From positions 10,664,001 through 10,728,000 of the forward strand of contig JBHGNT010000001.1 in the NCBI GenBank assembly GCA_043228905.1: DNA of 64,000 bases, written 5' to 3'. The stretch comes from Azolla caroliniana. Taxonomy: Eukaryota; Plantae; Polypodiophyta. Under the pieces are notes generated by a model. The model worked only from the letters and a program-made list of their open reading frames with translations. It was not told where the DNA came from and did not search any database. Numbering within the stretch: position 1 is the first letter of the stretch; the number at the start of each line of letters is the position of its first letter. The position numbers and the translations under genes are program-made. Shown here one piece after another: positions 1 to 63,499 of the stretch.

Positions 1-546
1 CCGATCCGAGACCGAGGAAGGACCGATGGGCGAAGAGTGAAGGCGGGCCGGTTTTCTCCGTCCCAACTTAATTGGCGCATGCCGATGGATGCGCGGTTAG
101 GTGGGGGCGGATGTCGTGAAGAAAACCGTCCAAGGGTGGAATTGGGGCACCAAGGCGTGGGAACCGGCTCTTCACGCGCGTGCGCGCCAAGTTGTACATA
201 GAGGCGGATTAGGTACCTAGGAGGATCGAAGTGGTTAGATACGGTAGGTAGAAATTTAATGCCGAACGGCTCCGTCTGGACCTATAAAAGGAGGAGGACG
301 GGGAAGAAGAAGGGATCGCGACTTGGCGAGGAGGAAGTGCTGTCGAATTGCGAAGAGGCTCTTCTTTCCTGGAGAGAAGATCGTCGGACGCTGCAGAGCC
401 TGGGGATTTGTCGTTTCTGCTGCGTGGGAAGCCCGAGTGCTTCCGGCAGAGGCTCCCTGTTCTGCTGCTGCTTCGAGGTCGCGGATTTGGGCGCAGAGGT
501 CGTGATCCGTCGGGAGTTCGCTGTCTCTGCTCCGTGGACAACCCGT

Positions 547-1339
547 TGTCGTGAAGAAAACCGTCCATAAGCGGAATCGGCGCACCAAGGCGTGGGAACC
601 GGTTCTTCACGCCCGCACGCTCCAAGTTGTACATAGAAGCGAATTAGGAGGATAATCGGCAGGAACGGGCCCTAACACAAGTGGAGACAAAGACCGCGCG
701 AACAGTCTTCTCGGTCGCGCGCGCGAGCTAAGGAACTGTACGAGTCGGCGGCGTAACTACGCGGATGCGTGAAGAACGGAGCGGATCCCTGTTCGAAAGG
801 GACAGGGAATAAAGCTGACATGACGGCCTGCTCGTCGGCCTATATAAGGAGCTGGAAAGAGCGTTTGCAGGCATCTCGCGCAGAGAGGACGAAGTGCTGT
901 CGGACCGTTTCTGGACGCTTCTCTCTCTGTTTCCTTCCTTCTTGAGCTCCATAGCTTTCTGTGCAGGGTCCCGAGGAGGCTCGCGCTGTTTCGAGGAACG
1001 CCCGAGTGCTTCCGGCAGCACCTCCGACCTGCTGCCCCTTTGTGCGTCGAAGCGAACAAGCATCGGCATCTGTTCGTCGGCCTGTTCGGTTGTAACCAAC
1101 CTGTGCCCCCATCGAGGGTTGTAGTCGTGTTAGCCATTTTTGTTAATATACATATTTAGTCATTCGCATCTGTCTGTGTCAGTGTCTGTTCGCGTTCTCC
1201 GTGCTGAAGGGCCGTGTCCCTGTGTATCCCCGGTCCTGCGTAGCCGGTTCTCTCTCTTTCTCCTCCCTCGCTTGCTCTTTGGTTCGAGACCCCCGCGGTC
1301 CCGCCTCGTTTCCACACGCACTTGCATAATATCTCGACA
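547..1339 (+). repeat. E1 5' LTR
   Basis: TGTCG...CGACA termini and TATA box CTATATAAG near 840. Direct repeat of 7058-7850 with roughly a dozen substitutions by eye. Confidence 0.97.
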
Positions 1340-1343
1340 TCTT

Positions 1344-1361
1344 TGGTGAACCCGACGTGAA
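1344..1361 (+). promoter_or_regulatory. Primer binding site for tRNA-Trp. Also at 17854-17871(-), 20826-20843, 45961-45978(-) and 53665-53682.
   Basis: TGGTGAACCCGACGTGAA is the reverse complement of the plant cytosolic tRNA-Trp(CCA) 3' end (UUCACGUCGGGUUCACCA, recalled from memory). It lies 3-4 nt after the LTR. Confidence 0.9.
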
Positions 1362-1383
1362 GGAGGCGGCAGAAGAGCAGAAG

Positions 1384-3510
1384 ATGAGGGGGTCGGATCT
1401 TGCAGAGGCCATGGCTTCGGCCGTGGATCTGATTGTATACGCGCGCGAGGGCACCGGTGCCCTCGACAGAGCTATTGAGGCGATCGTCGGCACGATCGGC
1501 CGGTTCGATGGGAAGGATGCCACGAAGTATTTGGCGTCGTACGGTGCAGAGATGCTGATGCGGGACATTCCGGAAGAAAGGCGTCTTGCCGGATTTCCCC
1601 GAGTGGCGATGCCGAGCATCCATGCGGAGGTGCTCGAGGTGCGGGCGGAGAGCCGTACCTGGGAGGAGTTCGAAGGTCGGCTCCTAGAGAAATACGGGCT
1701 GGACGACGCGCTCCGGCTTTCGAAGCGAAGGTTCATGGAATGGGTGGAGTCCCCGGGGAAGGGAAGAAACGCGTCGGCACTCCTCCGGGAGTTTGAGGAA
1801 AACTTTGCGCGCCTTTCGGCGCTCGACCGAACCATCCTGGACACGAGCCGGGTCTTGCTGTTTGTCAAGTCGGTCGACGAGCGGGATCGGGAGCAAGTGG
1901 GCCTCTTGCTGGAAACCGAAGACGGGCTCACTACCGACTGGGCGGCTGTCAAGAAAGTCTGTGGCCGTTTCGACAAACGGCGAGAATGGGCGGATAACGG
2001 GGCAACCGGGTCGGGCTCGGTCGCAGCAAGGAAACTCGAACCAGCACCACAGGTGCGAAAGGAAGAGACCCGAGAGTGGTTGGAAACCGGTTCGGCTTCG
2101 ACCGGCGTAGTCAGAGGCTCAACCGGAGGAGCGGCGCTGGAGGAATTGACGAGGGCGATAAAGGACCTCCAAATCGCGCAAGCCCGAAGGGAAGGTGGCG
2201 AACCGGCTCGTGACCGACGGCCGACGGCAGGAAACAGGTGCATGTGGTGCGATGAAGTCGGCCACATTCGGAAGGACTGCGGCGACTTCGCGGAGGCGCT
2301 GAGGAACAGGGTGGTGTACCTGTGGGAAGGACGGGTGCATGCCAGCGACACCCGAAGGGCCCTGAGCCGAAATGACGGGCGAGGTGGTATGAAAAGGTTG
2401 ATGGAAGAGGCGGCGGCCCGACACGCGGAAACCGTCCACTACTCGGCGTCGGCCGACATTCGAGTCGGGGGCGGCGAGGCCCGAAGGGAAAGCAAAGCCG
2501 GATTCTGGCCGACGATGCTGGAAGGCCTTGCCGGTGCAAGGCTTAAAAGGGAGGAATCGGACCGTGCGGAGAAACGGGTACGGGAGATGACCGGGTGGAG
2601 CGACCCGGTCGAGGAAAAGACGGGCTTCGTGGAAGCCGCTTGCCAGAACTACGAGGCTCTGGTAGAAGAGAAGCGGGTGGGGAAACCCGGGACGACCGGG
2701 CCCTCACAACGATACGAGACCCGGTCCGGGCCACGACGGGACGAAGCCGGCGGGGCCGGTACGCAAGATAAACCCCAGAAGGGCGGGTACCGTCTGGGGA
2801 CGGAGATAGAAAGGACCACGGACTTACGAAAGGTCCTGGAGGAACGGATCCTCGACAGCAAGGTGGAGCTGTCGTTACGAGAGGTGCTGGGAATCGCCAA
2901 GAAGGAGTTCCACGACTCCATCGTGGACTTGGTGAAACGGAAGAGGCTGTCAACGGAGACAGAACCGGAAAGACCGGTGGAAGTGCGGACGACGCACCTA
3001 GACGACATGGCGCTGGGAGACGAGTGGGCGGAAAGCCACTATTCGAGACCACACTGGGCCCGAGCGACCACGGAAACCCCGGTGAAGATCGGCGATGTCC
3101 AGGAACCGGTGATAGCTTTGGTGGACCACGGATCGGAGATCAATTTGATGTCCATGGACTTCTATAAGAAGGGCAAATGGCCGATCAACACCAAGCATGG
3201 GTGGAAAATAAGGGCAGCAACGCGCGCCACCGAGGAACTGCACGGGGCCTGTCCGAATGTGCGAGTCAAGATCGGCGACATCGAGATTGACCAGCACTTC
3301 TTCGTGCAGGAGACGTCTTCGCATCCGGTCATACTGGGAGAGCCGTACATCACGGCGGCACGAATGGAGACCAAGGTGCTGGACAATGGTTCGGCCTACA
3401 CGAGGGTCAAAAGCCAAGACGGGCGCCATTCGGTCCAGTTTCTGACGGTACGGCCGAACCACGAACGTAACCGCGACTCCCTCGGTTCCGAAAACCGAGA
3501 GGATTTTTAG
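1384..3510 (+). CDS. gag: E1 Gag-protease polyprotein (intact ORF)
   Basis: ATG conserved in all copies that keep their 5' end. Zinc knuckle CMWCDEVGHIRKDC. Aspartic protease-like ALVDHGSEIN...VILGEP. Confidence 0.9.
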   Translation: MRGSDLAEAMASAVDLIVYAREGTGALDRAIEAIVGTIGRFDGKDATKYLASYGAEMLMRDIPEERRLAGFPRVAMPSIHAEVLEVRAESRTWEEFEGRLLEKYGLDDALRLSKRRFMEWVESPGKGRNASALLREFEENFARLSALDRTILDTSRVLLFVKSVDERDREQVGLLLETEDGLTTDWAAVKKVCGRFDKRREWADNGATGSGSVAARKLEPAPQVRKEETREWLETGSASTGVVRGSTGGAALEELTRAIKDLQIAQARREGGEPARDRRPTAGNRCMWCDEVGHIRKDCGDFAEALRNRVVYLWEGRVHASDTRRALSRNDGRGGMKRLMEEAAARHAETVHYSASADIRVGGGEARRESKAGFWPTMLEGLAGARLKREESDRAEKRVREMTGWSDPVEEKTGFVEAACQNYEALVEEKRVGKPGTTGPSQRYETRSGPRRDEAGGAGTQDKPQKGGYRLGTEIERTTDLRKVLEERILDSKVELSLREVLGIAKKEFHDSIVDLVKRKRLSTETEPERPVEVRTTHLDDMALGDEWAESHYSRPHWARATTETPVKIGDVQEPVIALVDHGSEINLMSMDFYKKGKWPINTKHGWKIRAATRATEELHGACPNVRVKIGDIEIDQHFFVQETSSHPVILGEPYITAARMETKVLDNGSAYTRVKSQDGRHSVQFLTVRPNHERNRDSLGSENREDF

Positions 3511-3566
3511 AGAGGACTGCCAAGGCGTGGGGCCGCGACAGTCCGGATGCTCCGGGAAAACCCCAC
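3501..3566 (+). other. Putative -1 programmed ribosomal frameshift signal (slippery heptamer plus pseudoknot)
   Basis: G GAT TTT TAG, a 6-nt spacer, and stems GGACTG/CAGTCC and GTGGGG/CCCCAC. The -1 frame is open into pol. The arrangement is conserved in six copies. Confidence 0.8.
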
Positions 3567-6500
3567 ATCTGTACGATAAAACCGTGTAGAATAGGTAGGA
3601 AATTTTGCTTCTCCGACAGCGGAGCATGTACGATGGTCGGCATCGCCGGCCGAGAGAAAACAAAGACGGAGGGGAGACTTCGGGCGTGCGGAGTTCTCGG
3701 CCCTGACGAAGAAATCGACGGAGCCGTGGAGGCAGTCTCCTTCGACGACACCTTGGGAATGCTGGGGAAGGTAGTCGAAGAAGACCTTAACGAAGACCGG
3801 ATGATACCGGTATGTTCCGAAGAAATGTATGAAGTCATCGCGGACTTCGGTCGAGGGCTCGAGTCGGAACGGACGGCCCGAGTTAGCACCAAGTACAAGA
3901 CTGTGGACCAGAAGGTGAGGCCAGTTGCGGCGCCCTTACCGGAGGGCAGCGAATCCCGAATCAAAGGGGTTGCATCGGACCCCAGCTTACGAGATCCGGC
4001 CTGCATAGGACACGCCTTCACCAACGAGACGCTCCGCGAGCTGAAGATCGGTGGGGGCGGGTTCCTACTGCCGGTGGAGGAAGACCGGTTTCGGAGAATG
4101 CTCGGAAGGCACGGGAAAGCCTTCGCATTCTCACCGGAGGAAATCGGGTGCGTAGACCCGACAATCGTAGAGCCAATGGTGATATTCACGGTACCGCATG
4201 TACCGTGGAATCTCAAGCCAATCCGGTTCCAAGAGCTCACATCCCGAAGTTGATGGAGCTGTTGAAGCAGAAAGTTGATATGGGCATTCTCGAGCCGTCG
4301 AGCGCCCCATATTCAAACCGATGGTTTACAGTACCAAAGAAAAACGGATCGTTGCGCTTCATTCAGGACCTGCAGCCGGTCAACAGAGTGACCATTCGGA
4401 ACGCAGGGATCGGACCGACCATAGACGAGTTCGCGGAGGCCTTCGCCGGAAGGTCGATTTACTTGGTCGGTGATCTATACTCAGGGTACGACCAGTTCCA
4501 GCTAGCCGTGGAGAGCAGAGACATTACGACGATGCGAACTCCCCTCGGCCTAGTGCGGATGTGTACACTGCCGCAAGGAGGGACCAACTCGGTGGCCCAC
4601 ATGGTGAATGCAATGAACAAGGTGCTGAGGGACTGCATCCCGGACATCACCATGCCGTTTCTAGACGACATCCCGATCAAGGGATGCCCGGTAGAAGAGA
4701 AGGACGAGACGATCGGGCCGGACGGATGCCGGCGATTCGTGATGACGCACATCGACGACTGCGAGAAGGTGCTGCAAAGGCTAGAGGATGCGAGGCTCAC
4801 CTTCTCGGGGGAGAAGTCAGCCTTCGGGCAGTCGGAAATCATGGTGGTCGGACATTTATGTGGACCATATGGCCGGAAACCGTCTCCGGCAAAGGTAGAA
4901 GCCATCTCCGCGATGAAGTCTGATTGCAGCTCGGTCACGGAAGTACGAAGATTCTTGGGAGCATGCGCCTTCTACCACATATGGATCCCGCATTACGCGC
5001 ACGTCGCGGAGCCGCTGTACGGATTTGAAGAAAGGGCGAAGATTCGAATGGCTAGACAAGCACACGGAGTCGGTCCGGAAGCTGAAGGAGGCGCTTTCGG
5101 CAGCACCGGCGCTCCGAAAGGCCGTCTACAGGAAGGGCACCCCAGTGTACATAACGGTTGACACGAGTCCGACCGAAATCGGGTGGGTCGTCAACCAAGA
5201 AGACGAGGACGGCAATCGGTTTCCGATCCGATTCGGCGCGAAGGTCCTCAGTGAGCGGCAGCGAGGATACGCCCAGGTTAAACGCGAACTCTGGGGTATC
5301 GTTTCGGCGGTGAAGGCCGACAAGGACTATCTGATCGGGACAGAGGTAATCATAGAGACGGATTGCATGCCGATTCTCGGCATGGTTTCCGGATGCGCGA
5401 CGCCGGACCTGGCAATGCTCAGGTGGATAGCGTACATCAAGTCCCTGGACCCGGAAATACGACACATTTCCGGGAAAGACAACGCCATGGCCGACATGCT
5501 TTCGAGGGCGAGGTTCGATGACGAGGGCGGCATGGTTTCGGAGGACGAAGAGGTCGGCGTGGACTTCTTCGAGGCATCATACGTAACAACCGACGGGACG
5601 AGCACTCTGGCGCTTAACGACTTCGACGCGAGCAAGTACGACGGGGAGTGGCTGCAGATCGGCGGGTTCTTGAGGACAATGGCGCCGGATGCGTCATGGA
5701 CGAAAGACGAGGCCAACCGGATCCGGAAGAAAGCGTACCGGTTCTTTCTCCGGGATGGCTATCTATGGAAGCACCCGAAGAAGAGGGACGGCGCTCCGCT
5801 CCGGGTGGTGGCGATGAAGGAAGAACAGGAGGAGCTGCTGACGGCCTACCACGACAGCCCTTGGGCCGGACACCGTGGAACTTGGGCCACGTTCGAGAAG
5901 ATAAAGGAGAAGTACTGGTGGCCGGGACTGTACCGGGACGTGCATCTATACGTGACAACTTGCGAGAGCTGTTAGATGCACTCCGTGGTCCGACACCGGG
6001 ACGAGCTTCACCCTACGTACCCTCCGACCATCCACTTCAAATGGATGGTAGATCTGGTGACGATGCCAATGGGGGTAGGACAGATGTGGTACCTGGTCCT
6101 AGCGCGGGAGGATCTGACGAACCAGGTGGAAGGCCGGGCCCTTCCGAACAAAACGATCGCGGCCGTATGTCGGTTCCTAATCGAGGACGTGATATGCCGG
6201 TACGGGTGCGTCGGGAAGATCGTGGCTGACCGAGGGGAGTTGGACGCCGAAGAAGCCGCGGAGCTGTTCGACCGGCTGGGAGTCAAGCTCTCGCTCACCA
6301 CTGCGTACAATCCGGAGGCGAATGGAAAGGTGGAGCGCGGACACGGGCCGATCGTCAAGGCGTTGGTTCGGGCATGCGGAGGCCGAGTCGGTAACTGGCC
6401 GCGGCTGCTACCTTATGCTTTGTGGGCAGACCGGACCACGCACAGTTCGGTAACCGGGTACATGCCGACGGAGCTCATGTTCGGCCAGAAGCCGATCATG

Positions 6501-6986
6501 CCGATGGAACGGACGATCTCCTCGTGGGCAACGGTCGACTGGAGGGACGAGATGAGCCGGGAGGAGTTGTTGGCCGCGCGTATACGACAGCTCGAGCAAA
6601 GACCGGAGGACGTGGAACTGGCTGCGGAGAAGCTCCGGGTGGTGAGGACAAAGAACAAAGCTAGGTTCGACCGAACGCACCGGCTCCGACCGAAGAAAAT
6701 CGAAGAAGGTGACTGGGTGCTCGTCTACGACAGCAGTCTCGACAACCAGCACCGAGCTACACGGAAGTTCGCACGAAGGTGGTTCGGGCCTTACGTGGTA
6801 CGGAGCGCCAATGACAACGGGACATATCACCTGGCGGAACTCGACGGCACGAGAATGGCGATACCGGTTGCAGGGAAGCGGATCAAAGCGTTCAATAAGC
6901 GACACGACGACGAGCCAGACCCGGCTCTCCTAGTCAGCAGTGACGAACTATCCGAAAACGAGGAAGAACCGACGGGCGAGGAATGA
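3501..6986 (+). pseudogene. pol: E1 pol (RT-RNase H-integrase), disrupted
   Basis: ORF pieces 3633-4253, 4148-5161, 5025-5975 and 5976-6986. Frameshifts near 4225 and 5025 and a TAG at 5973, relative to sister copies. Confidence 0.92.
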
Positions 6987-7042
6987 AGACGGGCCGGTTT
7001 TCTCCGTCCCAACTCTCTTGGCGCATACCGGAGGATGCGCGG

Positions 7043-7057
7043 TTAGGTGGGGGCGGA
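7043..7057 (+). promoter_or_regulatory. Polypurine tract of E1
   Basis: TTAGGTGGGGGCGGA directly before the 3' LTR; the same or a close variant precedes the other 3' LTRs. Confidence 0.85.
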
Positions 7058-7850
7058 TGTCGTGAAGAAAACCGTCCATAAGCGGAATCGGCGCACCAAG
7101 GCGTGGGAACCGGTTTTTCACGCGCGCACGCTCCAAGTTGTACATAGAAGCGAATTAGGAGGATAATCGGCAGGAACGGGCCCTAACACAAGTGGAGACA
7201 AAGACCGCGCGAACAGTCTTTTCGGTCGCGCGCGCGAGCTAAGGAACTGTACGAGTCGGCGTCGTAACTACGCGGATGCGTGAAGAACGGAGCGGATCCC
7301 TGTTCGAAAGGGACAGGGAATAAAGCTGACATGACGGCCTGCTCGTCGGCCTATATAAGGAGCTGGAAAGAGCGGTTGCAGGCATCTCGCGCAGAGAGGA
7401 CGAAGTGCTGTCGGACCGTTTCTGGACGCTTCTCTCTCTGTTTCCTTCCTTCTTGAGCTCCATAGCTTTCTGTGCAGGGTCCCGAGGAGGCTCACGCTGT
7501 TTCGAGGAACGCCCGAGTGCTTCCGGCAGCACCTCCGACCTGCTGCCCCTTTGTGCGTCGAAGCGAACAAGCATCGGCATCTGTTCGCCGGCCTGTTCGG
7601 TTGTAACCAACCTATGCCCCCATCGAGGGTTGTAGTCGTGTTAGCCATTTTTGTTAATATACATATTTAGTCATTCGCATCTGTCTGTGTCGGTGTCTGT
7701 TTGCATTCTCCGTGCTGAAGGGCCGTGTCCCTGTGTATCCCCGGTCCTACGTAGCCGGTTCTCTCTCTTTCTCCTCCCTCGCTTGCTCTTTGGTTCGAGA
7801 CCCCCGCGGTCCCGCCTCGTTTCCACACGCACTTGCGTAATATCTCGACA
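7058..7850 (+). repeat. E1 3' LTR
   Basis: Direct repeat of 547-1339. Confidence 0.97.
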
Positions 7851-10800
7851 CCGTGTGCTTCCGGCAAAGACACTCCTCTTCTGCGACATTCTGCTCCTGT
7901 GGGTGCGTGAGTGGGACCCGTGTTGGGACCCTTGCCGGCGTGCTGGTTGTAAATGACAGTTTGTATTCTCTGTTTAATTGAAGTCTAGCAGTCTCGTCCT
8001 TTCTTGCTCTTGTTGTCTCCCTCGTCTCTTGTGCAGTCGATCTTTCACACACACACACACACACGAATACACACCCGCCTGCTCTTCTCCTCCATCTTCT
8101 TCGTTCTCACTCTCTTTCTCTCCTTGGTTCGAGACCCCCGTGGTCCCGCCTCTGTTCCTACACGTACCCGCGGAAGACCGCGACAACGGGTTTGACGACT
8201 CGCTTTGGATGTCAAGGCGGGACTTCATGGCGTGGGTGGAAAGCCCCGGAAAGGGGAGGAACACGTCGGTGCTCCTCCAGGAGTTCGAAAAACGGTTCGT
8301 TGTCGACGCTGGACCGAACAGTGCTCGAAACAAGTTGAGTACTGCTATTTGTCAAGTCGGTGGACGCGCTCGACAGGGAAAAGGTGGGTCCCCTATTGGA
8401 AACGGACGAAGGGCTCACAACAGACAGGGCCATGGTAAAACGGGTCTGCAGCCGTTTTGACAAACGGCGTGATTGGAGCGACGGAAGCTCGTCGGGGTCG
8501 GGGCCGGTCCCGGGGAGGAGGCTCGAGGAGCCGGTATCGGTGCCGGCCGGTAGGAAGGAAGAGACCCGAATCTGGCCAGAGTCGGGGTCGGCATCGAACG
8601 ATGTGGTCCGAGGCCCATCCGGAGGAGCGGCTCTGGAGGAGCTGACACAGATGGTGTGCGACCTGCAGATCGCACAGGCCCGGAGAGACAGCGACGAACA
8701 ACCTCGCGACCGGAGGTTGCCGGCTGGGCAAAGGTGCATGTGGTGTGACGCGATCGGTCACATTCGGAAGGATTGCGTAGATTTCACCGACGTGCTCAGG
8801 ACCAACGTGGTGTACCTCTTAAACGGGCGGGTGCACACGAGCAAGACCCGGAGAGCCCTAGAACTGAATACAGGGCGTGGCGGAATGAAGAGGTTGATGG
8901 AAGAGGCCGCGACATGGCATGTCGAAGCCGTTAACAACTCAGTGTCGGCGGGAATTCAGGTCGGGGGTGATGAGACCCGGAAGGCGAAAGACTCCGGATT
9001 CTGGCCGCTAGTGCTAGAAGGCCTCTCCGGAGTTCGGCTGAAGAAGGAAGAGGTGGACCGCGCGGAACAACGGGTCCAGGAGGTCACCGGTTGGGACGAT
9101 CCGGTCGAAGAGAAAATGTGCTTCGTAGAAGCCGCTTGCTAGAACTACAAGGTTCTGGTGGAGGACAAATGGGCAGGAAAGGCCGGAGGGGTCGGTCCCC
9201 CGCAGAGGTATGAGACCCGGTTCGGACCGAAACCGACCGGTGCCGGCAACCCAAGCGCGCCGGACGGGAAGAAGCAGGCGGGGTTTCGGTTGAGCACCGA
9301 AATCGAAAGGACCACAGACCTGCGAAAGGTCCTGGAGGAACGTATCCTCGACAACAAAGTGGAGCTGTCATTGCGGGAGGTGCTGGGAATCGCCAAGAGG
9401 GAGTTCCACGACTCTATCGTAGACTTGGTGAAGCGGAAGAGGCTCTCGACGGAGCCGGAACCGGAGAAGCCGGTGGAGGTGCGGACAACGCACCTGGAAG
9501 ACGAAGCCCTAGAAGACGAGCTAGCGGGAAGCCACTACACGAAGCCGCATTGGGCCAGGGCAACTACGGAAACCCCTGTACGGATCGACAACGTTCTAGA
9601 ACCGATGGTGGCGTTGGTAGACCATGGATCCGAAATCAACCTGATATCCACGGATTTCTACAAGAAGGGTAAATGGCCGATCAACACCAAGCATGGCTAG
9701 AAGATACGGGCAACGACGCGCGCCACGGAAGAACTACATGGGGCCTGTCAGAACGTACGGGTGAAAATCGGCGATGTCGAGATCGACCATCACTTCTTTG
9801 TGGAGGAGACGTCCTCGCATCCGGTTATACTAAGAGAGCCATATATCACGGCGGCACGGATGGAGACCAAGGTGCTAGACAACGGTTCAGCCTATGCAAG
9901 AGTCAAGAGCCAGGACGGGCGTCGCTCGGTCCAGTTCCTAACGGTGTGACCAAACCACGAGCGTAACCGCGAGGCCCTCGGCGGCGAAACCTGAGGGGAT
10001 TTTTAGAGAGGGCTATCAAGGCGTGGGGCCGCAATAGTCCGGACACCCGGGAAGAACCCCACAAATGTACAGTACGGAAGAAGACCTGTACCATAGGTAG
10101 GAAATTTTGGTTCTCCGACAACAGAGGTTTGTACTATAACCGGCGTCAGCGGCCGGGAGAGGAAGCGAGCAGAGGAGCGGCTCAAGGGATGCGGAGTCCT
10201 CTTCCCCGACGAAGACATCAGCGGTGCCGTGGAGGCGGTCTCTTTTGACGACACCTTGGGCGAACCGCGGAAGGTGATTGGTGAAGACCTTAGAGAAGAC
10301 CGGGCCGTTCCGGTAGGGTCAATGGGAATGTACGAAGTCATTGCAGACTTCGGGGGAAGGATCGGGTGGGATCGGACGGCCCGCGTGGATACAAAGTACA
10401 AGACTGTGGACCGGAAGGTGAGGCCAGTTGCGGCACCCTTGCCGGAGGGCAGCGAGGAGCGGATAAAAGGGGTCGCGTCAGACCCAAGTTTACGGAATCT
10501 GGCTGGCATAGGGCACCGGTTCACCGACATAACGCTACGGGAGCTCAAGGTCGGTGGGGGTGGCTCTGCCGGTGGAGGAGGACCGGTTTCGGAGAATGCT
10601 CGGGAGGCACGGGAAGGCTTTCGCATTCTCACCGGAGGAGATCGGGTGCATAGACCCGACAATTGTCGAAACGATGATGATCTTCACGGTACCGCATGTA
10701 CCGTGGAATCTCAAGCCGATTCCAGTGCCGAGAGCTCAGATCCCGAAGTTGATGGAGCTCCTGAAGCAAAAGGTGGAGATGGGCATCCTCGAACCGTCGA

Positions 10801-12189
10801 GTGCCCCGTATTCGAATAAGTGGTTTACAGTGCCGAAGAAGAACGGCACGCTGTGCTTCATTCAGGACCTGCAACCGGTCAACAAGGTGACCATCCGCAA
10901 TGCAGGAATCGGACCGGCCATAGACGAGTTCGCGGAGGCCTTCGCTGGAAGGTCGATCTATTCTGTTGGTGATCTGTACTCGGGGTACGATCAGTTCCAA
11001 CTAGCCATGGAGAGCAAAGACATTACGACGATGCGGACTCCTCTCGGCCTAGTGCGGATGTGTACCCTGCCACAAGGAGGGATGAACTTAGTGACTCACA
11101 TGGTGAAAGCGATGAACAAAGTGCTCAGGGATTGTATCCCGGACATCACCATGCCATTCTTAGACGACATCCCGATCAGGGGATGCTCGGTGGAGGAAAA
11201 GGACGAGGCAATTGGGCAGGACGGATGTCGGAATTTCGTGGCGTCCCACATCGATGATTGTGAGAAGGTGCTACAGAGACTAGAAGGCGCGAGGCTCACC
11301 TTCTTCATGGAAAAGTCGGCCTTCGGGAAATCAGAGATCATGGTCATCGGGCACCTATGCAGACCATACGGTCGGAAACCGTCTCCGGCCAAGGTGGAAG
11401 CCATCTCCGCGATGAAGCATGACTGCAATTCGGTCACGGAGGTCCGTAGATTCTTGGGAGCATGCGCGTTGTCGAGGTATTCCTTGCGGATGCGTGGAAT
11501 GAGGCCGGGCCTCGGGGGTCTTGTACCGAAGAGCAAGAGACAAAGGAGAAGGGAAGGGACCCACTACGTGTGGGCGTAGATTCACAGGGACACGACCCTT
11601 CGACACAAAGACGCGAGTGGGACACCGACGCAAAGAGACACGAATGTATGTATATATATATTAACAAGGACAAACAACAAGAAGCACGAAGTCGGTTACA
11701 ACCGAACCCGAACAGGCCGGCGAACAGATGTCGATGCCTGTTCGTAAACGCTCAGAAAGAAAGGAATAGGTTGGAGGTGCTGCCGGAAGCACTCGGGCAT
11801 TCCTCTGAGCAGCGCGAGCCTCCCGAAAACCTGCACAGGAAGAAGCTACGGAGTATGGAAGAGAGAGAAGCCTTCGGCCGACAACCCGATAGCACTTCGT
11901 CCTCTCTAACCGCGATTCCTCTTTCCTCCCCGTCTCCCTCCTTTTATAGGCAAGAAAGGAGCCGTTTCCCATTAACTTCCTACCTACCGAATCTACCTAC
12001 CTAGGATCTTCTATGTACCTAATTCTCTCTTATGTACAACATAAGGCGTACGTGCATGAAGAGCCGGTTCTTACGCTCCGGTGCACCGATTCCGCTTGTG
12101 GACGGTTTTCTTCACGACATCCGCCCCCACCTAACCGCGCATCCACCGGCATGCGCCAATTGAGTTGGGACGGAGAAAACCGGTCCAGT

Positions 12190-20800: not shown

Positions 20801-20865
20801 ATCCGCGAGGAAAACCTCGACATCTTGGTGAACCCGACGTGAAGGAGGCGGCAGAAGAGCAGAAG

Positions 20866-28062: not shown

Positions 28063-28102
<40 letters not shown>

Positions 28103-50236: not shown

Positions 50237-50237
<1 letters not shown>

Positions 50238-50277
<40 letters not shown>
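50238..50277. repeat. (AC)n microsatellite in the Copia B 5' LTR
   Basis: Read directly. Confidence 0.95.
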
Positions 50278-50280
<3 letters not shown>

Positions 50281-53024: not shown

Positions 53025-54879
53025 TGTCGTGAAGAAAACCGACCCTAAGAAGAATCAAGGAGTTAAAGGCATGAACCCCCGCCCTATCATGGGTATGTGT
53101 GAATTGATACATTGTATATAACTAGGAATAGGACGGATGATGCAAATATATTAGGTATGAGATACTTATTAATTAGGAAATCGAACCGTATCTCTGTCTG
53201 AAGGGACAGAGAATAAAGTTGACGTGTTTTGATGTAACGGCCTCCTCGACGACTTATAAAAGGGAAGGGAGAAGAGGAAGAAATCATCAGGTTTTGGGGA
53301 GGCAAGGAAGAGGTGTTGTCGGACTGGGAACCAAGCTCTCTCTTCCTCTGTCATCATTCTCTGCAGGGTTGCAACCGTTGTAGTTGTCTCTGTTATTGTA
53401 ATAGAATCCCTTGTTTCTGTGTTATTTGCGTTGTCCGTGTTATCAGTGTTTCTTCTTCCATTTCTCTCGAGTGTGCTCCTTGGTTGAATCAGTATACGCA
53501 TTGGTGGTTCAATTAGCAGACCAGTGCCGATGGTTGCTGACAAGTCTAGCAGGCATTACACGTGTGCGCTTCTCACTTCCTCTTGTCTCTCTCTTGCTCC
53601 TCGGTTTAGGGCTCCCGTGGTTCCGCCTTATTTCATACGCGAAAACAAAACAACACGACATATTCGGTGAACCCGATGTGAAACAAGGCGGTAGAGGAGT
53701 GAAGATGAGGGGATCGGAGCTCGCCGAAGCCATGGAGGCAATGGTCGATCGAATAGTAAGTGCCCGCGAGGGCACGGGCACCCTCGATAGGGCCATTGAA
53801 GCAATTGTCGGCACAGTAGGCCAATTCGGTGGGAAGGATACCACGAGCTATTTGGTGGCCTACCGAACCGAGATGGTGATGAGAGACATTCCAGAGGATA
53901 GGTGTCTGGCCGGGTTCCCTCGGGTGGTGACACCGGGCATCCACACAGAGGTGCTCGAGGTACGGGCTGGATGCCGGACCTGGGAAGAATTCGAAGCACG
54001 GCTCCTCGAAAGGTACGAGCTTGATGATGCACTTTGGTTATCGAAGCGGGACTTCATGGAGTGGGTGGAAACCCCCGGAAAGGGGAGGAATGCGTTGGCG
54101 CTCCTCCGGGAGTTCGAGGAACGCTTCGCACGGCTCTCAACGTTGGATAGGACCGTGTTGGACACGAGCCGTGTCCTGTTATTCGTCAAATCGGTGGATG
54201 CGCGGGATAGGGACCAGGTGGGTCTCCTGTTGGAGACAAATAATGGGCCGACTACTGACTAGGCCATGGTCAAGGGGGTCTGCAACCGCTTCGACAAACG
54301 GCGAAAGTGGGGCGACGAGAAGTCATCGGTGACGGGACCCACCCAGTGTTGGGCAAAGTCCCAGGAACAGTGTTAACATTCCGGTTGGGTTGGGACTTTT
54401 GCCGGCCAAGGTGGGGGACAACCGGAATTGATTCCGGCCAAGTTTTTCTACCAACCGGAATCTAGTCGGTTCAAAAAATATGAACCGGCTATTTATGTAG
54501 TTTATGTAAAAAAAAGGTAAAAAAGAGAAGTTCTTATGTATTCTTTTTTTCTTTCCCCCTTTTTACCCCCTTTTACTGTTTTATTTTCCCCCTCTTTTTG
54601 TTTTTCTCCCTCTCTGTGTCATATTTCCTGCTCGCTACTCCCGAGTCCCTCCTTGTTGCTCGTTGCTCCCTCCTCGTTGCTTGCTGCTCAATGCTCCCTC
54701 CTCGTTGCTCGTTGTCATTCCTCCTTCCTACTTCCTCGTTTGCTAACAGGTGCTTGTTATTCATTGCTCGTTACTCGCAAACGCTCCTCACTACTCACTG
54801 TTCATTGCACATTGCCCACTGCTCATTGCTTATTAGTAATTACTCACTAATTGTTGCTCCTTCTTCGTTGATTGCCGCT

Positions 54880-55165
54880 CATCACTCAGTAATGGTTGCT
54901 CGTTGATTGCCGTTGGTCACTCATTGATTCCCGCTTGCTTATTGTCGCTCGTCACTCGTCGCTCACTGATTTCTGCTCATTGATTGTCGCATGTCGCTCG
55001 TCGCTCACTGATTGCCACTCGCTGATTGTCGCTCATCGCTCATTGATTGCCGCTTGCTGATTGTCGCTCATCGCTCATTGATTGCCACTCACCGCTTGCT
55101 GATTGTCACTTGTCACTCGTCGCTCATCATTCGTTACTCGTCGATCACCACTCGTTGATTCCCCC
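54880..55165. repeat. Degenerate short tandem repeats (CGCTCA(T/C)TGATTG-like) in the hAT 5' region
   Basis: Recurrent GCTCA/TGATTG units. Confidence 0.75.
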
Positions 55166-55381
55166 ACGTTACTTGCCGCACGTTGATCGTCGCTCATTAC
55201 TTGCCGCTTACTAGGAGTTGTTCATCGCTCGTCACTTGTTGCTCTCTATTGCGGGGTGAGTGCACATTTTTAAGTATTACAGTCTTGTACCCTCAATCCA
55301 TTTTCTCATATAATTATGTGAACTTGCATTACCTTGTTTATTTTCCTTCTAGGTTGTATGTTTTTATTCTAGAATATTCAT

Positions 55382-55699
55382 ATTAATAAGTGTAGGCTTC
55401 ATGTACGTAGTTTGATGACAATAAGACCTTAAGACCATTCATAAAATGTAACAATAGTGAAGAGATTCATTTTGCAATACATCACAATGTAGGCTTTGAA
55501 TCAAACATTCATGTATGACATTTTCAATCATCAAGTGATTATTAATAAGTGTAGGCTTCATGTACGTAGTTTGATGACAATAAGACCTTAAGACCATTCA
55601 TAAAATGTAACAATAATGAAGAGATTCATTTTGCAATACATCACAATGTAGGCTTTCAATCAAACATTCATGTATGACATTTTCAATTATCAAGTGATT
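55382..55699. repeat. Two-copy 159-bp tandem duplication inside the hAT
   Basis: ATTAATAAGTGTAGGCTTC... at 55382 and 55541, with about 3 differences. Confidence 0.92.
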
Positions 55700-56846
55700 T
55701 GATCACTTCTTAAACGTCTCTTGAACATTGTACGGCAAAGATGAGGGAACATTGCAAAGTATGTGCATTGGAGAAGAGGGTTGAATCTTCACGCTTCTTT
55801 TTAGTGGGTGAACATGAAGTCGTGAAGATGTAAGGAAGCTCGGTGTGGAAAGAGATTTACGCTTCTTCATCATCATCATCAAGGGGCTACTATGATAAAC
55901 AAATTAGGCAAATCTAAAATACTATTTACTTATTACAATATAACTAGACGAATCAACAAATTTGTGATGAGAATCAACATGTATTTCAAACATATGTAGT
56001 GGAGGATAGGTTGAAAATCAGGAGGGAATTATGCACAACAAATTATCTTAGCACAAAAAAAGCATAAAAAGATTATGAGAATAGACAAGAATAAATCACA
56101 AGGAGACATGTATATTTCATTATTACCTTGCATTTGTATTGTCATCTTGTTTTAATATATACGTCACTTTTGTAAAATGAAGTTGAGGGCTGATTTTGGT
56201 ACCTAGTAGAGAATGCTCCAACTTTGAAAAGGATCGTTGAAAGTCTAGTCATTTAACACTATTATTTATCTTTCATGGATCATTTAAATGGTGAAAATGT
56301 TTTATACTTGTAAATTTACCCCAAGATTCCTTTGCTAACTCGCACACATCTCTTAACTCCAAAACATGTTGTTTTTTATCATTTGTTTCTTGGTAAACAT
56401 ATTATATTCAATCAATTTTATGTTCTATTATATCGTATGAGTTCAAACTCAAATATTTATGAGTTCATGAAAACTCGACAATTATTACCTTACATTTTTA
56501 TTGTCCTCTTGTTTTAATAATACACTACTTTTTTTCTCTTGATCTTTTCCTTCATATTGTTTGTAATATATTTGTTCCCTCAATTTCTTTCACATTTACA
56601 TACATGGACTTGCATGTGTGTGTAAGCTAATGTGAGTAATCCTCTTTCATATTTATTTTTTGATAGATTCGAAGATCTATAGTGGAAACTTGATCCTTGA
56701 TTGCCTCGTAATCTTCCATATATCCCAGGTATTTTAATTTGCTTATTCTTTTTAGAAAACATGGATTGTGTATGTATATTTCCCCTTCTTTTAAATGGAA
56801 TCCATAGATTATGCTAGTCCAATGTACTCTACATTATTGTTACAGT

Positions 56847-59079
56847 ATGTCCCACAACAAAAATACGAAAGGCAAAGGAAAGCAAATCAATCTCTTTACA
56901 ATCCCTGGTTTTAGGAAAAACTTGTCATCTTTCAATGAAGATGTGTCTCTAGAAGAGCCTATAAAGGACCATTAACCCTCTCACGAGTTATTTCATGAGA
57001 TGAATAGAATTAGTAAGGCCAAACTAAAATTTCAAGAAGATTGGCCTACTAAATTTAAGTGGCTTCAAGAGGATTTGGAAACTGGTCTTTTATGGTGTAG
57101 TTATTGTAGGAGTGATCCTCATTGTAAGTCTTCATTTGGCAAAACGGGTGCCAGAAACTTTAAGACTTCTGCATTATAAGACCATGCAAGAAGTGTGGCC
57201 CATCGAGATGCCATTTTATTCGAAGAACGAGACAAGAATGGTCTTGAAAAATGGGCATCAAAGAAAAAAGCTAGTGTGGATGTAGCAATTGAAAAATTGT
57301 TAAAATGTGCATATTTTATAGCTAAAGAGGATTTGGCATTTAAAAAACTGGAATGCCTCTTACGATTGCTAAGAGAATGTGGTGTGGAAGGCCTTCCACG
57401 AATGTATAACGATAATAAGGCTTGTGCAAGCTTTATCTTGCACATTAGCAAGGCTCTTGAAGCCGAGATATATGATAGGGTGAGGACAAGTCCTTGGTTT
57501 GGGCTTATGGTAGATGAAGCTACCGATGTAAGTGTAACCAAGAACTTGATCCTTTACGCTACACTTGTGGAAGGAAGGCAAGTAAAAACCTCTTATTTGG
57601 AGTTACTTGAAGTAGAGGATGGTACAACAAACACAATAACAGAAAGCATTTTAGCATTGTTAAAAAAGTGGAATCTAGATGTTAGAAAAATGATGGGATT
57701 TGGAAGTGATGGAGCATCTGTTATGGTAGGTATGTCTACAGGTGTTGCTACAAGATTGAAGTCATATAATCCATTTATGACTTCCTTACATTGTTGTGCA
57801 CATCGAACAAACTTGTGTGTGCAAGAGGCTTCAAAGAACATTGAAGTCAAAGAAACATGCAAGCAGTTAGATGCCCTTGTGAATCGGGTGGCTGCACATT
57901 TCTCGAGGAGCCCAATGCGCCAAGGTGAATTAACTAAGATGCAAGATGCATTAGAATACACACATTTGCATATTCTTGGGATTGTGAAGACACGATGGCT
58001 TAGTCGGCATGGTGCTATCATGAGGGTATGCGATGTGTATGAACCCTTGATGAAGACTTTGCAATCGCAAAGTGATGCATACAATGTATTCTTAAGTTTA
58101 AGAAACTTCAAAGTAGTGTATATGCTTCACTTCCTTGCAGATGTACTTAAGATCATGTCTACGTTAAGTAGAATTCCAAAAGGAATACGTGGATGTGACA
58201 TGCATTGGAGGTTTGGCTATGATAGCCATTGGGGAGATAGAAGAACAATTTCTACATCATGTTATGATGGATCTCAATGGTTTTGAGAAGGATAGCTATA
58301 ATTATCCAATTATTCCAGAATATGGTAGAGAAAAAGGAATGCTTTCAGTTTTACGAGATGCTATAAAAGGTAATATGTATAAAAGCAACCTCATGGATAG
58401 ATGTATTGATGGTGAGGACTTAATTGAAGCCATACGATTCCAAACTTTGTTTTCTAAGGCATTAATAGAGATAATAATAAAAAGGCTTCAAGATCCGATG
58501 ACTCTTTCCGCGTTGAAAATGTTATCACCAATGAACATGTCTACCAGATCTACAAGCACTTTAGCACGAAAAACTATGGGTCTTAATGAGTTGAAAACAC
58601 TTGGAAATTTTTATGGCATTCAAAAAATGATAGATGGGAAAGCGTTTTCTCCCATAATTGATAATGATAAATTGTATGATGAATATGCAATTTTCAAAAG
58701 GCAAGCCACTACGGAATGGCATGGAAGAGATTTCTTAGATGTTTGGGGTATGATAAATTGTAATGATGTGTGGAAAGAAAAGCTACCCGAACTTCTAAAG
58801 CTTTCATTGATAGGATTAATTCAATGTTCTTCTACGGCAGCATGTGAGAGAGGCTTTAGTCGCCTAAATCTAATAAAAAATAAGTTTAGAAATAGGTTAA
58901 AAAGCAATGTGGTTGATGCATTGATACGAATCTCTATTGAAGGACCTGAACTAGAAGAACATGACTTTAGTGCCAACATTTTGTTGTGGCGAGAAAGCAA
59001 GGCATATCGTCATATTTTTACAGGAACTTCTCATGAGCATGATGATGACATCGAGGACTTCATAGAAGATATAGATTGA
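56847..59079 (+). pseudogene. hAT transposase (ZNF862/DUF4371-like), disrupted
   Basis: N-terminal WCSYC...H...H zinc finger; DEATD; SDGASVM; HCCAH; TRWLS; CERGFS dimerisation motif. Two early stops and a frameshift near 58175. Confidence 0.9.
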
Positions 59080-62000
59080 AACATTATAAATTTGATCGAT
59101 TTTGTTTTGGAACTTTCTATATACTAGATCTAATTTGATCTAATATGTTGTTAATGCTACTTTACAAAGTTTTGAAAAGTGAAATTTGTTTAAAAAGTTA
59201 GAATTTTTTTTGGTAAATATATATCTTTAGTTTTTGGGATCCAAAATTTTGTGATTGATTTGTTTTGGTATTACGCTAGATTTTTCTTTTTGATTTGGTA
59301 TATGGCCAATTTTTTTTTTTAACATGTTCCGGTTGACATTGTCGCTAGTAGGAACGTGGCCGGCTGAAATTTTAAAATTCCGGTTAGGTTTATGAGAAGC
59401 AGGAAAATTTCCGGTATGGGCTAGAGACTTTGCCCAACACTGGACCCACCCCAACAAGGAAGTTCGACGAGCCTTCGCCGGCACGAAAGGAGGAAACCCA
59501 GAGTTGGCTTGAAATTGGCCCAACGCCGACCGGAGCGATCAAGGGCCCATCTGGGGGAGCGGCTCTTGAGGAGCTGACACAAATGGTGCACGACCTGCAG
59601 ATCGCGCATGCCCGGAGAGACAATGGAGGGCAGCCACCCGACCGAAGGCCACCGGCTGGACAACGGTGTATTTGGTGCGACGCGGTCGGACACAGTCGGC
59701 GAGACAACGTTGAGTTTGTCGAAGCCCTCAGGTGTAATGTGGTGTACCTATGGAACGTACGGGTGTATGCTGGTGATACTCGGAGAGAGGCGGAGACGAA
59801 TTTCGGGCATGGCGGGATGAAGCAACTAATGGAAGAGGCGGAGGCGCGCCATGTGGAGACCGTCCATTATTCATCATTGGCCGGGATCCGGGTGGGAGGT
59901 GACAAAGATCGGAAAATGAAGAATTCTGGCTTCTGGCCCTCAATGCTAGAAGGCCTCTCCGGCGCACGACTGAAGAGGGAGGAAGCGAGTCACGCAAAGC
60001 AGCGGGTCCGGGTGGTCACTGGATGGGACAATCCGGTTGAGGAGAAGACCGGTCTCGTGGAAGCCACATGCCAGAACTACGAGGTTCTGGTAGAAGACAA
60101 GCGCGCGGGAAAGGCTGGAGGGGTCAGTCCCTCACAACGGTATGAGACCCGGTTCGGACCGAAGCCGAACGACGCCACCAACACCGGCGCGCCGGATAGA
60201 AGAAAACAGGTCGGTTTCCGGTTGAGCACCGAAATCGAGCGAACGACGAACCTATGAAAGGTCCTCGAGGAACGGATCCTCGACAACTAGGTGGAGTTGT
60301 CATTACGAGAGGTACTCTGGATTGCCAAGAAGGAGTTCCATAACTCCATTGTAAACCTGGTAAAGCGTAAGCCTAGTAAAGCGTAAGCGGCTCTCTACGG
60401 AGACGGAGCCGGAGAAGCCTGTGGAGGTACGGACGGCACGCTTGGAAGACATGTCCCTGGAAGATGAGTTGGCGTAAAACCACTATTTGAGGTCGCACTG
60501 GACCAGGGCCACTAGGGAGACCCCTGTTCGGATCGGGGACGTCCAGGAGCCTGGGGTGGTATTGATAAACCACGGCTTGGAGATCAACCTTATGTTCATG
60601 GACTTCTAAAAGAAGGGGAAGTGGCTGATCAACACCAAGCACGGCTGGAAAATACGCGGGACGACCCGCACTACGGAGGAGCTGCACGAGGCATGCCCGA
60701 ATGTACGCATCAAGATTAGCGACGTCAAGATCGATCAACACTTTTTCGTGCAGGAGACGTTTTCACACCCGGTGATACTCGGCGAGCCGTACATTACGGC
60801 AGCGCGTATGGAGACAAGGGTGTTGGATAACGGTTCGGCATACGCGCGCATAAAGAGCCAAGGTGGACGACACTCCGTCCAATTCCTGACTGTACGACCA
60901 AACCATGAGCGGAACCGCGAAACCCTCGACGGCGGCGAACGAGGGGATTTTTAGAGAGGGCTATCGAGGCGTGGGGTTGCGATAGTCCGGACACCCCGGA
61001 GGATCCCCACACCTGTACCATAGGTAGGAAGTTTTGGTTCTCCGATAGCGGAGGTTGTACGATAGCCGACATCGTTGGCCGGGAAAAGAAGCGAGTAGAG
61101 GAATGACTCGAGACATGTGGAGTCCTCGACCTCGATGAGGAAATTAGCGGCGTCGTGGAGGCGGTCTCTTTCGATGACACCCTCAGGGAAATCGGGGAGG
61201 TGACTGAAGAAGGCCTCAATGAAGACCGAACGATTCCAGTTAACTCGGTGGGAATGTATGAAGTCATTGCTGTCTTCGGGGAAAGGGTCGGGTCGGATCA
61301 GATGGCCTGCGTAGATACAAGGTACAAGACTGTGGACCGGAAGGTGAGGCCAGTCGCGGCACCCTTGCCAAAGGGCAGCAAGGAACGAATAAAGGGGGTC
61401 ACGTGGGACCCAAGTTTACGAGATCCGGCCAGCATAGGACACCGGTTCACCGATGTAACGCTACAGGAGCTCAAGGTTGGTGGGGGTGGCTTTCTACTTC
61501 CGGCGGAGGAGGAATAGTTTCGGGGAATGCTCGAGAGGCACTGGAAGGCCTTTGCATTCTCACCGGAAGAGATCGGGTGCGTGGACCTGACGGTTGTTGA
61601 GCCGATGGTTATCTTTACGGTACCGCATGTGCCGTGGAATCTCAAACTGATTCCAATACCTAGAGCTCACATCTTGAAGCTGATGGAGTTGTTGAAGCAG
61701 AAGGTAGAGATGCGCATCCTCAAACTGTCGAGTGCCCCATACTCGAATCGATGGTTTACCGTGCCTAAGAAGAACGGCACGTTGCACTTTATTCACGACC
61801 TGTAGCCTGTCAACAAGGTGACGATTCAGAACGCAGGGATCGGGCCAACCATTGACGAGTTCGCGGAGGCCTTCGCCGGAAGGTCGATCTATTCGGTCAG
61901 GGATCTATACTCGGGGTACAACCAGTTCCAACTAGCCGTGGAGAGCAGGGATATTACGACAATGCTACAAAGGCTCGAGAACGCGCGACTCACCTTCTCT

Positions 62001-62122
62001 AGAGAGAAGTCAGCTTTCGGGTAGTCGGAGATCCTGGTAGTCGGGCACTTGTGCGGGCCTTATGGCCGGAAACCTTCTACGGCGAAGGTGGAGGCCATCT
62101 CCGCAATGAAGGATGAATGCGG

Positions 62123-62734
62123 TGTCGTGAAGAAAACCGTCCACGAGCGGAATCGGTGCACAGGAGCGTAGGAACCGGCTCTTCTCGAATGTTGTCCGTA
62201 GAAGATCCTAGGCAGGTAGATTTAGTGGGTAGGAAGTAAAGGGGAAACGGCTCCTTCCTTGCCTATAAAAGGAGGGAGACGCAAAGGGGGAGGGGATCGC
62301 AGAGAGTCGAGGACAAAGTGCTGTCGGTTTGGGTGCGAAGGCTTCTCTCTCTCTCTGGTTCGCGAACTCCATAGCTTCCTTCTGTGCAGGTTTCGGGAGG
62401 CTCGCGCTGCTCTGAGGAATGCCCGAGTGCTTCCGGCAGCACCTCCAACCTACTCCTTCCTTTTTGTGCGTTTACGAACAGGTATCGGCATCTGTTCGCC
62501 GGCCTGTTCGGTTGTAACCGTCTTCGTGTTCTTGCTGTTTGGTCTTTGTTAATACATACATACATTCATGTCTCTCTGTGTCGCTGTCCCACTCGCGTCT
62601 TTGTGTCGAAGGGCCGTGTCCCTGTGAATCTACTCTCGCACGTAGTGGGTCCCTTCTCCTCTCCCTCTTGCTCTTCGGTACAAGACCCCCGAGGTCCCGC
62701 CTCATTCCACGCATCCGCGAGGAAAACCTCGACA
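62123..62734 (+). repeat. Solo LTR (E4-like subfamily) in E6 RT
   Basis: TGTCG...CGACA with perfect TSD GCGG. Confidence 0.96.
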
Positions 62735-63499
62735 GCGGGTCGGTAACAGAGGTCCGAAGGTTCTTGGGGGCGTGTGCGTTCTATCACATCTGGATTCCCC
62801 ACTACGCACACGTTGCGGAATCACTCTACGGGCTACTGAAGAAGGGACGTGAGTTCGAATGGGGAAAGGAGCATACAGAGTCGATCCGAAGACTGAAAGA
62901 GAGGCTTACTGTGGCACCGGCTCTCCGGAAAGCGGTTAACGGCAAGGAGATCCCAATCTACGTAACCGTAGATACGAGCCCGACCGGGATAGGATGGGTG
63001 ATGAATTAGGAGGACGAGAGCGGCACGCAATTCCCGATCCGGTTCGGGGCGAAGGTTCTCAGTGAGCGACAACGAGGATACGCCCAAGTTAAGCGCGAAC
63101 TGTGGGGTATCGTTCCGGCGGTTAAAGCCGATAAAGACTACCTGATCGGGCCAGAAGTAATCATCGAGACAGACTGCCTCCCGATCCTCGGTATGGTTTC
63201 CAGATGCGCGACTTCGGACCTAGCAATGCTCAGGTGGATCGCGAACATTAAGTCCCTAGGTTCGGAGATACGAAACATCTCCAGAAAGGACAACACCATG
63301 GCTGACATGCTTTCTAGAGCACGGTTCAACGACGAGAACTGCATGGTTTCAGAGGACGAAGAAGTCCGTGTAGACTTCTTTGAGTCGGCTTGTGTAGCGA
63401 CAAGGGCAGGGAACACTCCAGTGCTCAACGACTTCAATGAGAGCGAGTACGACAGGGAGTGGCTCCAGATTGGATGGTTCCTAAGGACAATGACACCGG

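What the first reader, a model, noticed from the sequence alone, without database searches (positions are those of the whole stretch)
543..63499. Gypsy family that integrates on CpG: 4-bp TSDs with a central CG at 9 of 10 junctions
Seen: TSDs or flanks are CCGT/CCGT (E1), ACGG (E0), GCGT/ACGT (E3), CCGG/CCGG (E4), CTGT/CCGT (E5), CCGG/CCGA (solo 48584), ACGG (E6), GCGG/GCGG (solo 62123) and CCGG (E8). The only exception is E2's right flank, TATA at 28173. Most sites also fit a loosely palindromic A-Y-[nCGn]-n-T, e.g. ac[ccgt]gt, ac[ccgg]tt, at[ccgg]at, at[gcgg]gt. The targets include unrelated hosts (Copia B, the LINE), so homology does not explain it. Known: most plant LTR elements leave 5-bp TSDs with weak sequence preference, as Copia B does here (AAACC). 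Inference: this chromodomain-less integrase reads a CG or methyl-CG centred site. The family is itself CpG/CCGG-rich, so it builds its own landing pads. That would be a sequence-encoded route to self-nesting in methylated heterochromatin.
Basis: partly seen in the sequence, partly recalled or inferred. Interest (0 to 1): 0.82.

Follow-up and report, generated by a model that had tools for sequence, protein, structure and literature searches.

The report
CG-targeting Phygy-like plant retrotransposon
A plant jumping-gene family that almost always inserts into four-letter sites with CG in the middle; the preference is real and strong but is already in print for the moss Phygy lineage, to which this family likely belongs, and whether the CG must be methylated is untested.

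Summary
Nine of 10 insertions in the window have a 4-bp target with a central CG. So do 55 of 56 independent junctions from public contigs carrying the same LTR start, against a flank CG frequency of 0.03. Empty sites confirm 4 bp.

It is not new. The REXdb survey (Neumann 2019, PMC6317226) lists Phygy elements of Physcomitrella with a 4-bp NCGN duplication in 186 elements, a tRNA-Trp primer site and no extra domain. This family fits that profile, and its nearest named relatives are in liverworts, ferns and Chara. Clustering with reference Phygy could not be tested.

Refinements: the preferred site is ACGT (6.4x), CCGG is not enriched (0.87x), and T is avoided at the first position. Only 4 of 56 outside junctions lie in family DNA, so the landing-pad effect looks passive, about 2-3 times more CG per kb. 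Nothing here shows methyl-CG reading, and the integrase has no chromodomain or methyl-binding Pfam domain.

The parts
112..546 (+). E0 3' LTR, first part (split by E1); preceded by the polypurine tract
   Evidence: 99% identical to E5 LTRs; PPT seen directly
543..546 (.). E1 left TSD CCGT
547..7850 (+). E1, full-length family element, 7304 bp, LTRs 547-1339 and 7058-7850 (98.4% alike)
1344..1360 (+). Primer-binding site TGGTGAACCCGACGTGA; assignment to tRNA-Trp is recalled, not tool-confirmed
   Evidence: same site, with at most two changes, behind 5 of 5 5' LTRs; check found nothing
7851..7854 (.). E1 right TSD CCGT
7855..8185 (+). E0 3' LTR, second part; right flank ACGG at 8186-8189 inside E2 gag
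8186..28172 (+). E2, older family element that hosts E0, E3 and E4; 3' LTR 27455-28172
11470..18517 (-). E3, full-length, 7048 bp, flanks GCGT (11466-11469) / ACGT (18518-18521)
20194..27060 (+). E4, full-length, 6867 bp, TSD CCGG (20190-20193 / 27061-27064)
28173..28176 (.). E2 right flank TATA, the one insertion without a CG; unexplained
28173..31762 (-). Unrelated, degraded Ty3/gypsy element (Ty3_capsid gag, protease, RT, integrase), host of E2
   Evidence: 26% integrase identity to the family
36880..50618 (-). Copia B, host of E5 and solo 48584; 5-bp TSD AAACC
39520..46748 (-). E5, full-length, 7229 bp, LTRs 99.2% alike, flanks CTGT (39516-39519) / CCGT (46749-46752)
40360..41640 (-). E5 integrase: HHCC zinc finger, D-D-E core, WFGPY (GPY/F-type) C-terminal part and acidic tail; no chromodomain or methyl-binding domain by Pfam
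48584..49252 (+). Solo LTR, flanks CCGG / CCGA
   Evidence: empty site in 4 of 4 runs
53025..63499 (+). E6, 5' LTR 53025-53660, left flank ACGG (53021-53024); its internal region continues after the hAT element and hosts solo 62123 and E8
54344..59442 (.). hAT DNA transposon inserted in E6, terminal inverted repeats and 8-bp TSD GACCCACC
62123..62734 (+). Solo LTR, TSD GCGG / GCGG
   Evidence: empty site in 3 of 4 runs
63500..64000 (-). E8 LTR end, cut by the window; left flank CCGG (63496-63499)

Best explanation
This is a non-chromovirus Ty3/gypsy LTR retrotransposon family, likely of the Phygy lineage, that leaves 4-bp target duplications with a central CG, most often ACGT, likely because its integrase reads the CG base pairs directly rather than a methyl mark. 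Shown: the 4-bp length, near-exclusive CG centre, outer-base order A > C ~ G >> T, and lack of a chromodomain. Inferred: the integrase complex cuts with a 4-bp stagger and bends the target at the central pyrimidine-purine step, as foamy-virus integrase does. Bending alone would also accept TA, CA and TG, so the exclusive CG likely needs symmetric base contacts from the two catalytic subunits. Avoidance of T at the first position is likely the general steric rule of such complexes. Nesting in its own copies would then follow passively from their higher CG density and from each insertion leaving two new targets at its ends.
For: Window: 9 of 10 insertions. Outside: 55 of 56 distinct host-flanked LTR starts, background 0.030, binomial p 2e-82, and 7 of 7 host-flanked LTR ends found. 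Site classes against availability: ACGT 23 observed vs 3.6 expected, CCGG 3 vs 3.4, TCGA 0 vs 7.0, CCGA/TCGG 0 vs 9.3. Phygy profile in REXdb: 4 bp (100%), NCGN, tRNA-Trp 81%, no extra domain or ORF. Named relatives: Riccia sorocarpa and R. fluitans, Ceratopteris, Adiantum, Chara braunii. PFV integrase and Ty3 Gag-Pol are the closest solved structures. Central YR steps and T avoidance are general to retroviral intasomes (PMC4422553 abstract and section 14). ZAM integrase binds and nicks its CGCGCg target in vitro (PMC2527525 abstract), and CGCG targets occur in Drosophila (PMC5408687 passages), which has next to no CpG methylation (recalled).
Against: No Physcomitrium Phygy sequence could be obtained (none among the listed hits; the REXdb FASTA is too large), so lineage membership rests on structural features. 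The elements are 6.9-7.3 kb, below the 7.7-10.0 kb Phygy range. The tRNA-Trp call is recalled. No experiment or methylome separates CG from methyl-CG reading: LTR pairs show a methylation-type spectrum, and 10 of 46 scanned outside flanks carry retroelement domains against 1 with a cellular-type domain above its cut-off, which fits mostly methylated targets. The contacting residues were not identified. TATA at 28173 is unexplained. The 77 outside loci come from 10 assemblies with neighbouring accession numbers and should count as one source.
Confidence: 0.72

Rival explanations
1. The integrase needs or strongly prefers a methylated CG, through a methyl contact or the changed flexibility of a 5mCpG step, and so steers itself into silent DNA without a chromodomain.
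For: The near-absolute CG centre. Family LTRs show more C/T differences per site at CG (15 of 460) and CHG (18 of 282) than at CHH (10 of 815), unpolarised. Many outside flanks are transposon remnants, with CG observed/expected 0.70 and TG and CA about 1.18. A 1992 paper on CpG methylation and retroviral integration in vitro exists (title seen in a reference list; text not held).
Against: No chromo, MBD or SRA domain in P0001 or P0216 at E up to 0.01. CG-centred targeting exists in Drosophila. One outside insertion lies 208 bp from the last of five tRNA-Lys genes (L049) and one ends a frame with a plant methyltransferase domain (L037); the methylation state of both is unknown. Transposon-rich flanks are expected in any repeat-rich genome and after selection.
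Confidence: 0.15
2. Indirect read-out only: CG is picked as the most deformable central step for this integrase's sharp bend, with no base-specific contact.
For: 4-bp integrases show the strongest central YR enrichment (PMC4422553 abstract).
Against: TG, CA and TA are named as the most deformable steps (PMC5408687), yet 55 of 56 centres are CG. The single CA lies between two head-to-head LTRs and is likely a decayed CG.
Confidence: 0.1
3. Artefact of local composition, homology between copies or mis-set LTR ends.
For: Family DNA has 91-100 CG per kb, and 6 of 10 window targets are family DNA.
Against: The same result holds in flanks of 41.5% GC with CG at 0.030, 52 of 56 of them non-family by blastn. 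The search pattern held no flank bases. Empty sites give exactly 4 bp.
Confidence: 0.01

Closest known systems
Phygy lineage (non-chromovirus Ty3/gypsy; REXdb, Neumann et al. 2019, PMC6317226)
   Same: 4-bp TSD with NCGN preference; no chromodomain, aRH or extra ORF; coding region fills nearly the whole interior; primer site read as tRNA-Trp (recalled); relatives in non-seed plants.
   Different: Elements are 6.9-7.3 kb against 7.7-10.0 kb in P. patens. The paper calls Phygy species-specific, while this family's relatives span liverworts, ferns and Chara. The outer-base order (ACGT best, T avoided at position 1) is not given in the passages and supplements I read. Tree clustering with reference Phygy is untested.
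TatI (REXdb)
   Same: 4-bp TSD and tRNA-Trp primer site.
   Different: TatI carries an extra archaeal-type RNase H; none was found here. No NCGN preference is listed for TatI.
Selgy (REXdb)
   Same: Short non-chromovirus element with a 4-bp TSD and no extra domain.
   Different: tRNA-Ala primer site, 4.4-6.7 kb, no NCGN preference listed.
ZAM subgroup errantiviruses of Drosophila (CGCG / CGCGCg targets)
   Same: Sequence-specific Ty3/gypsy integrase with a CG-containing palindromic target; ZAM integrase binds the target in vitro.
   Different: Animal lineage with a longer, stricter consensus; here only the central CG is fixed.
Prototype foamy virus intasome
   Same: Closest solved integrase by sequence (E 4e-21); 4-bp duplication, central YR step, T avoided at the joining position.
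   Different: PFV has only a weak sequence preference; this family's CG is nearly absolute.

Membership tests
Ty3/gypsy LTR retrotransposon | LTRs with TG...CA ends, PBS, PPT, domain order RT-RH-INT | tested here: met
Phygy | Clusters with P. patens Phygy in RT/RH/INT trees (REXdb's primary criterion) | not testable with these tools
   REXdb FASTA too large; no Physcomitrium protein among the listed hits; the tree has no Phygy reference
Phygy | 4-bp TSD | tested here: met
Phygy | NCGN target preference | tested here: met
   9 of 10; 55 of 56; 7 of 7
Phygy | PBS complementary to tRNA-Trp | tested here: inconclusive
   Site conserved behind 5 of 5 5' LTRs; the tRNA identity is recalled; no tRNA-Trp gene in the window or in 60 of 77 loci scanned; one search found nothing
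Phygy | No extra domain (chromodomain, aRH) | tested here: met
   Pfam on window ORFs, P0001 and P0216; integrase ends in an acidic tail 74 bp from the LTR
Phygy | Short element, polyprotein filling nearly the whole interior, no extra ORF | tested here: met
   ORF map and Pfam
Phygy | Length within the P. patens range of 7656-9968 bp (descriptive, one species) | tested here: not met
   6867, 7048, 7229 and 7304 bp; filed as Phygy-like, not as a proven member
TatI | Extra archaeal-type RNase H (aRH) | tested here: not met
   No PF13456 or RNase_H hit at E up to 0.01 in P0001 and P0216, nor in the precomputed domains of the 120 listed relatives
Chromovirus | C-terminal chromodomain | tested here: not met
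Selgy | tRNA-Ala PBS and 4.4-6.7 kb length | tested here: not met
   Lengths 6.9-7.3 kb; PBS identity recalled as Trp

The most novel reading that the evidence does not exclude
Phygy-like integrases read symmetric 5-methyl-CG with the catalytic core itself, a tether-free way to land only in DNA the host has already silenced, kept from Chara to ferns.
Probability: 0.12. Interest if true: 0.75.

Novelty: new member of a known kind. Interest (0 to 1): 0.2.

Why it matters
The target rule was already noted for Phygy, so the finding is mainly a confirmation in another family, with a sharper motif (ACGT best, T avoided first). It does point to a cheap open test. In the papers I read nobody asked whether Phygy needs the CG methylated, and a near-absolute two-base rule makes this a clean model for how an LTR integrase gains sequence specificity. 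If methylation were required, it would be a new way to reach silent chromatin.

Tried and rejected
No whole genome is held, so the genome-wide logo was replaced by metagenome contigs and contigs of 4 of 20 listed runs. Loose-end tables gave only consensus letters, so they could not be counted. Left and right flanks of solo-like outside loci disagree (L008, L024, L034, L066), probably because assemblies join across collapsed LTRs, so outside flanks were counted one side at a time. Of 77 loci, 15 were dropped as PPT-preceded 3' LTRs and 6 as duplicates, leaving 56. In one search, 11 of 111 flank frames (L012, L021, L026, L034) were left out because of a coordinate-mapping fault in my script. Three homologue searches listed no Physcomitrium protein. 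Searches for distant relatives with flanks found nothing useful in viral or prokaryotic contigs (one 3.8-kb contig, L078, with its match running to the contig end). The attempt to explain TATA from relatives of the host element failed: the host has an internal deletion there and no close relative covers the site. A link to fungal Ylt1-like elements is only a lead (DUF4100 gag clusters in Basidiomycota); no TSD sequence for them was found. A literature search for NCGN or DUF4100 listed only unrelated papers in its first 25 of 93 rows. Earlier findings of this scan: none. No structure was predicted, as it would not separate CG from methyl-CG reading.
Full report
Anatomy. The window is a nest of transposons. 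Self-comparison, ORF mapping and Pfam show one Ty3/gypsy family with TGTCG...CGACA LTR ends. There are four full-length copies (E1 547-7850, E3 11470-18517, E4 20194-27060, E5 39520-46748; 6.9-7.3 kb), two solo LTRs (48584, 62123), two interrupted hosts (E2, E6) and two copies cut by the window ends (E0, E8). Gag carries a DUF4100 match. Pol runs RT, RNase H, integrase and ends in an acidic tail with no chromodomain. Other elements are a degraded unrelated Gypsy (28173-31762), Copia B (36880-50618) and a hAT transposon (54344-59442) that splits E6.

Observation. All flanks are as reported: 9 of 10 insertions and 14 of 16 junctions have a central CG. The duplication is 4 bp. Removing E1 with one copy restores the sister LTR at 99% with no gap, and public contigs carry the empty sites of both solo LTRs as skips of LTR length plus 4 (3 of 4 runs; 4 of 4 runs). 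The chance of 9 of 10 is 5.5e-10 to 1.4e-8.

Independent test. No genome was held. An exact search with the first 21 LTR bases, which include no flank, returned 77 metagenome loci. Fifteen were 3' LTRs behind the polypurine tract and 6 were duplicates. Of the 56 distinct host junctions, 55 have a central CG against a flank frequency of 0.030. The exception, CCAT in L068, lies between two head-to-head LTRs and is likely a decayed CCGT from an older duplication (inference). All 7 host-flanked LTR ends found are also NCGN. These loci come from 10 assemblies with neighbouring numbers and count as one source; whether the host species is the window's is not known.

The motif. Against the NCGN sites available in the flanks, ACGT is used 6.4 times more than expected, ACGG/CCGT 2.4, ACGC/GCGT 1.9, CCGG 0.87, and sites with T first or A last 0 to 0.34. 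The CCGG-rich look of the window reflects its hosts. Bases outside the four add little.

Self-nesting. Family DNA has 91-100 CG per kb, against 22-72 in other window DNA and 28 in outside flanks. In the window, 6 of 10 targets are family DNA, which holds 909 of 1846 host CGs and 11.6 of 33.6 kb. That fits a passive density effect, and ten sites cannot separate it from plain length. Outside, 4 of 56 flanks are family DNA by blastn (one more has a weak tblastx match), with the caveat that short-read assemblies lose repeats. Reuse of an old duplication is seen in L068 and in one contig with ACGC between an LTR end and an LTR start.

Methylation. Differences between paired LTRs fall more often on CG (15 of 460 sites) and CHG (18 of 282) than on CHH (10 of 815) (unpolarised), and all three TSD mismatches are such transitions. 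The copies were therefore likely methylated after insertion. This does not show that the target was methylated. No methyl-binding domain was found. Of 46 outside flanks scanned, 10 carry retroelement domains and one a plant methyltransferase domain above its cut-off; one insertion lies next to five tRNA-Lys genes.

Mechanism. Most likely the integrase cuts with a 4-bp stagger, bends the target at the central step and contacts the two C:G pairs symmetrically. The stagger and the CG rule are shown; bending and contacts are inferred from PFV, the closest solved integrase, and from PMC4422553 (abstract and section 14 read), which also gives T avoidance at the joining position as nearly universal. 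Direct read-out without methylation has a precedent in ZAM (PMC2527525, abstract read; PMC5408687, passages read).

What is known. Neumann et al. 2019 (PMC6317226; passages, part 3 of section 3 and supplements 2, 4 and 5 read) state that Phygy elements are the exception among plant LTR retrotransposons, with an insertion preference for NCGN. Their table gives 186 elements, 4-bp TSD, tRNA-Trp primer site and no extra domain. PMC6911290 (passages) reports GC-rich centres in 4-bp TSDs and Phygy nested in Tcn1. PMC12885004 (passages) reports Phygy domains enriched in liverwort centromeres. The window family meets every structural Phygy feature tested except the length range, and fails the tests for TatI and chromoviruses. 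Its named relatives are Riccia (about 59% over RT-RH), Adiantum, Ceratopteris and Chara, so the host is likely a non-seed plant. Clustering with reference Phygy could not be tested.

What is not in print, as far as searched. Searches showed no test of methylation dependence for Phygy and no outer-base logo. I saw most hits only as listings, the library lacks most subscription journals, and REXdb Additional files 1 and 3 could not be opened.

Verdict. A real and very strong target rule, already described for the Phygy lineage. New here are a further family, a sharper motif and evidence that CCGG landing pads are not the driver. Interest 0.2; the methyl-reading case has probability about 0.12.

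Noticed in passing
window 54344-59442: A hAT DNA transposon with terminal inverted repeats and an 8-bp TSD (GACCCACC) splits E6; the stretches on either side are one element.
   Followed up: yes
L068 (minus strand, about 1640-1690) and run X11: A new copy sits directly against an older LTR with only four bases between (CCAT; ACGC), which suggests that old target duplications are reused as targets.
   Followed up: partly
L049:288-2479: Five tRNA-Lys(CTT) genes in 2.2 kb, with a family insertion 208 bp after the last one.
   Followed up: no
L037:1355-1609: An insertion ends a reading frame with a plant methyltransferase (Methyltransf_29) domain; gene, pseudogene or captured fragment is not known.
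   Followed up: no
window 28173-31762: The unrelated Gypsy host of E2 has an internal deletion in its integrase close to the TATA junction.
   Followed up: partly
P0121 (gag homologue): DUF4100-type gag clusters are also found in Basidiomycota, a lead that this lineage is related to fungal non-chromovirus elements whose target sites could test methylation independence.
   Followed up: partly
L078: A 54% identical pol relative lies on a 3.8-kb contig filed in a cyanobacterial genome assembly, probably plant contamination.
   Followed up: no
window 33800-36880 and 50620-53020: Further Copia remnants: one left of Copia B, and a Copia-like gag start on the minus strand near 50900.
   Followed up: no
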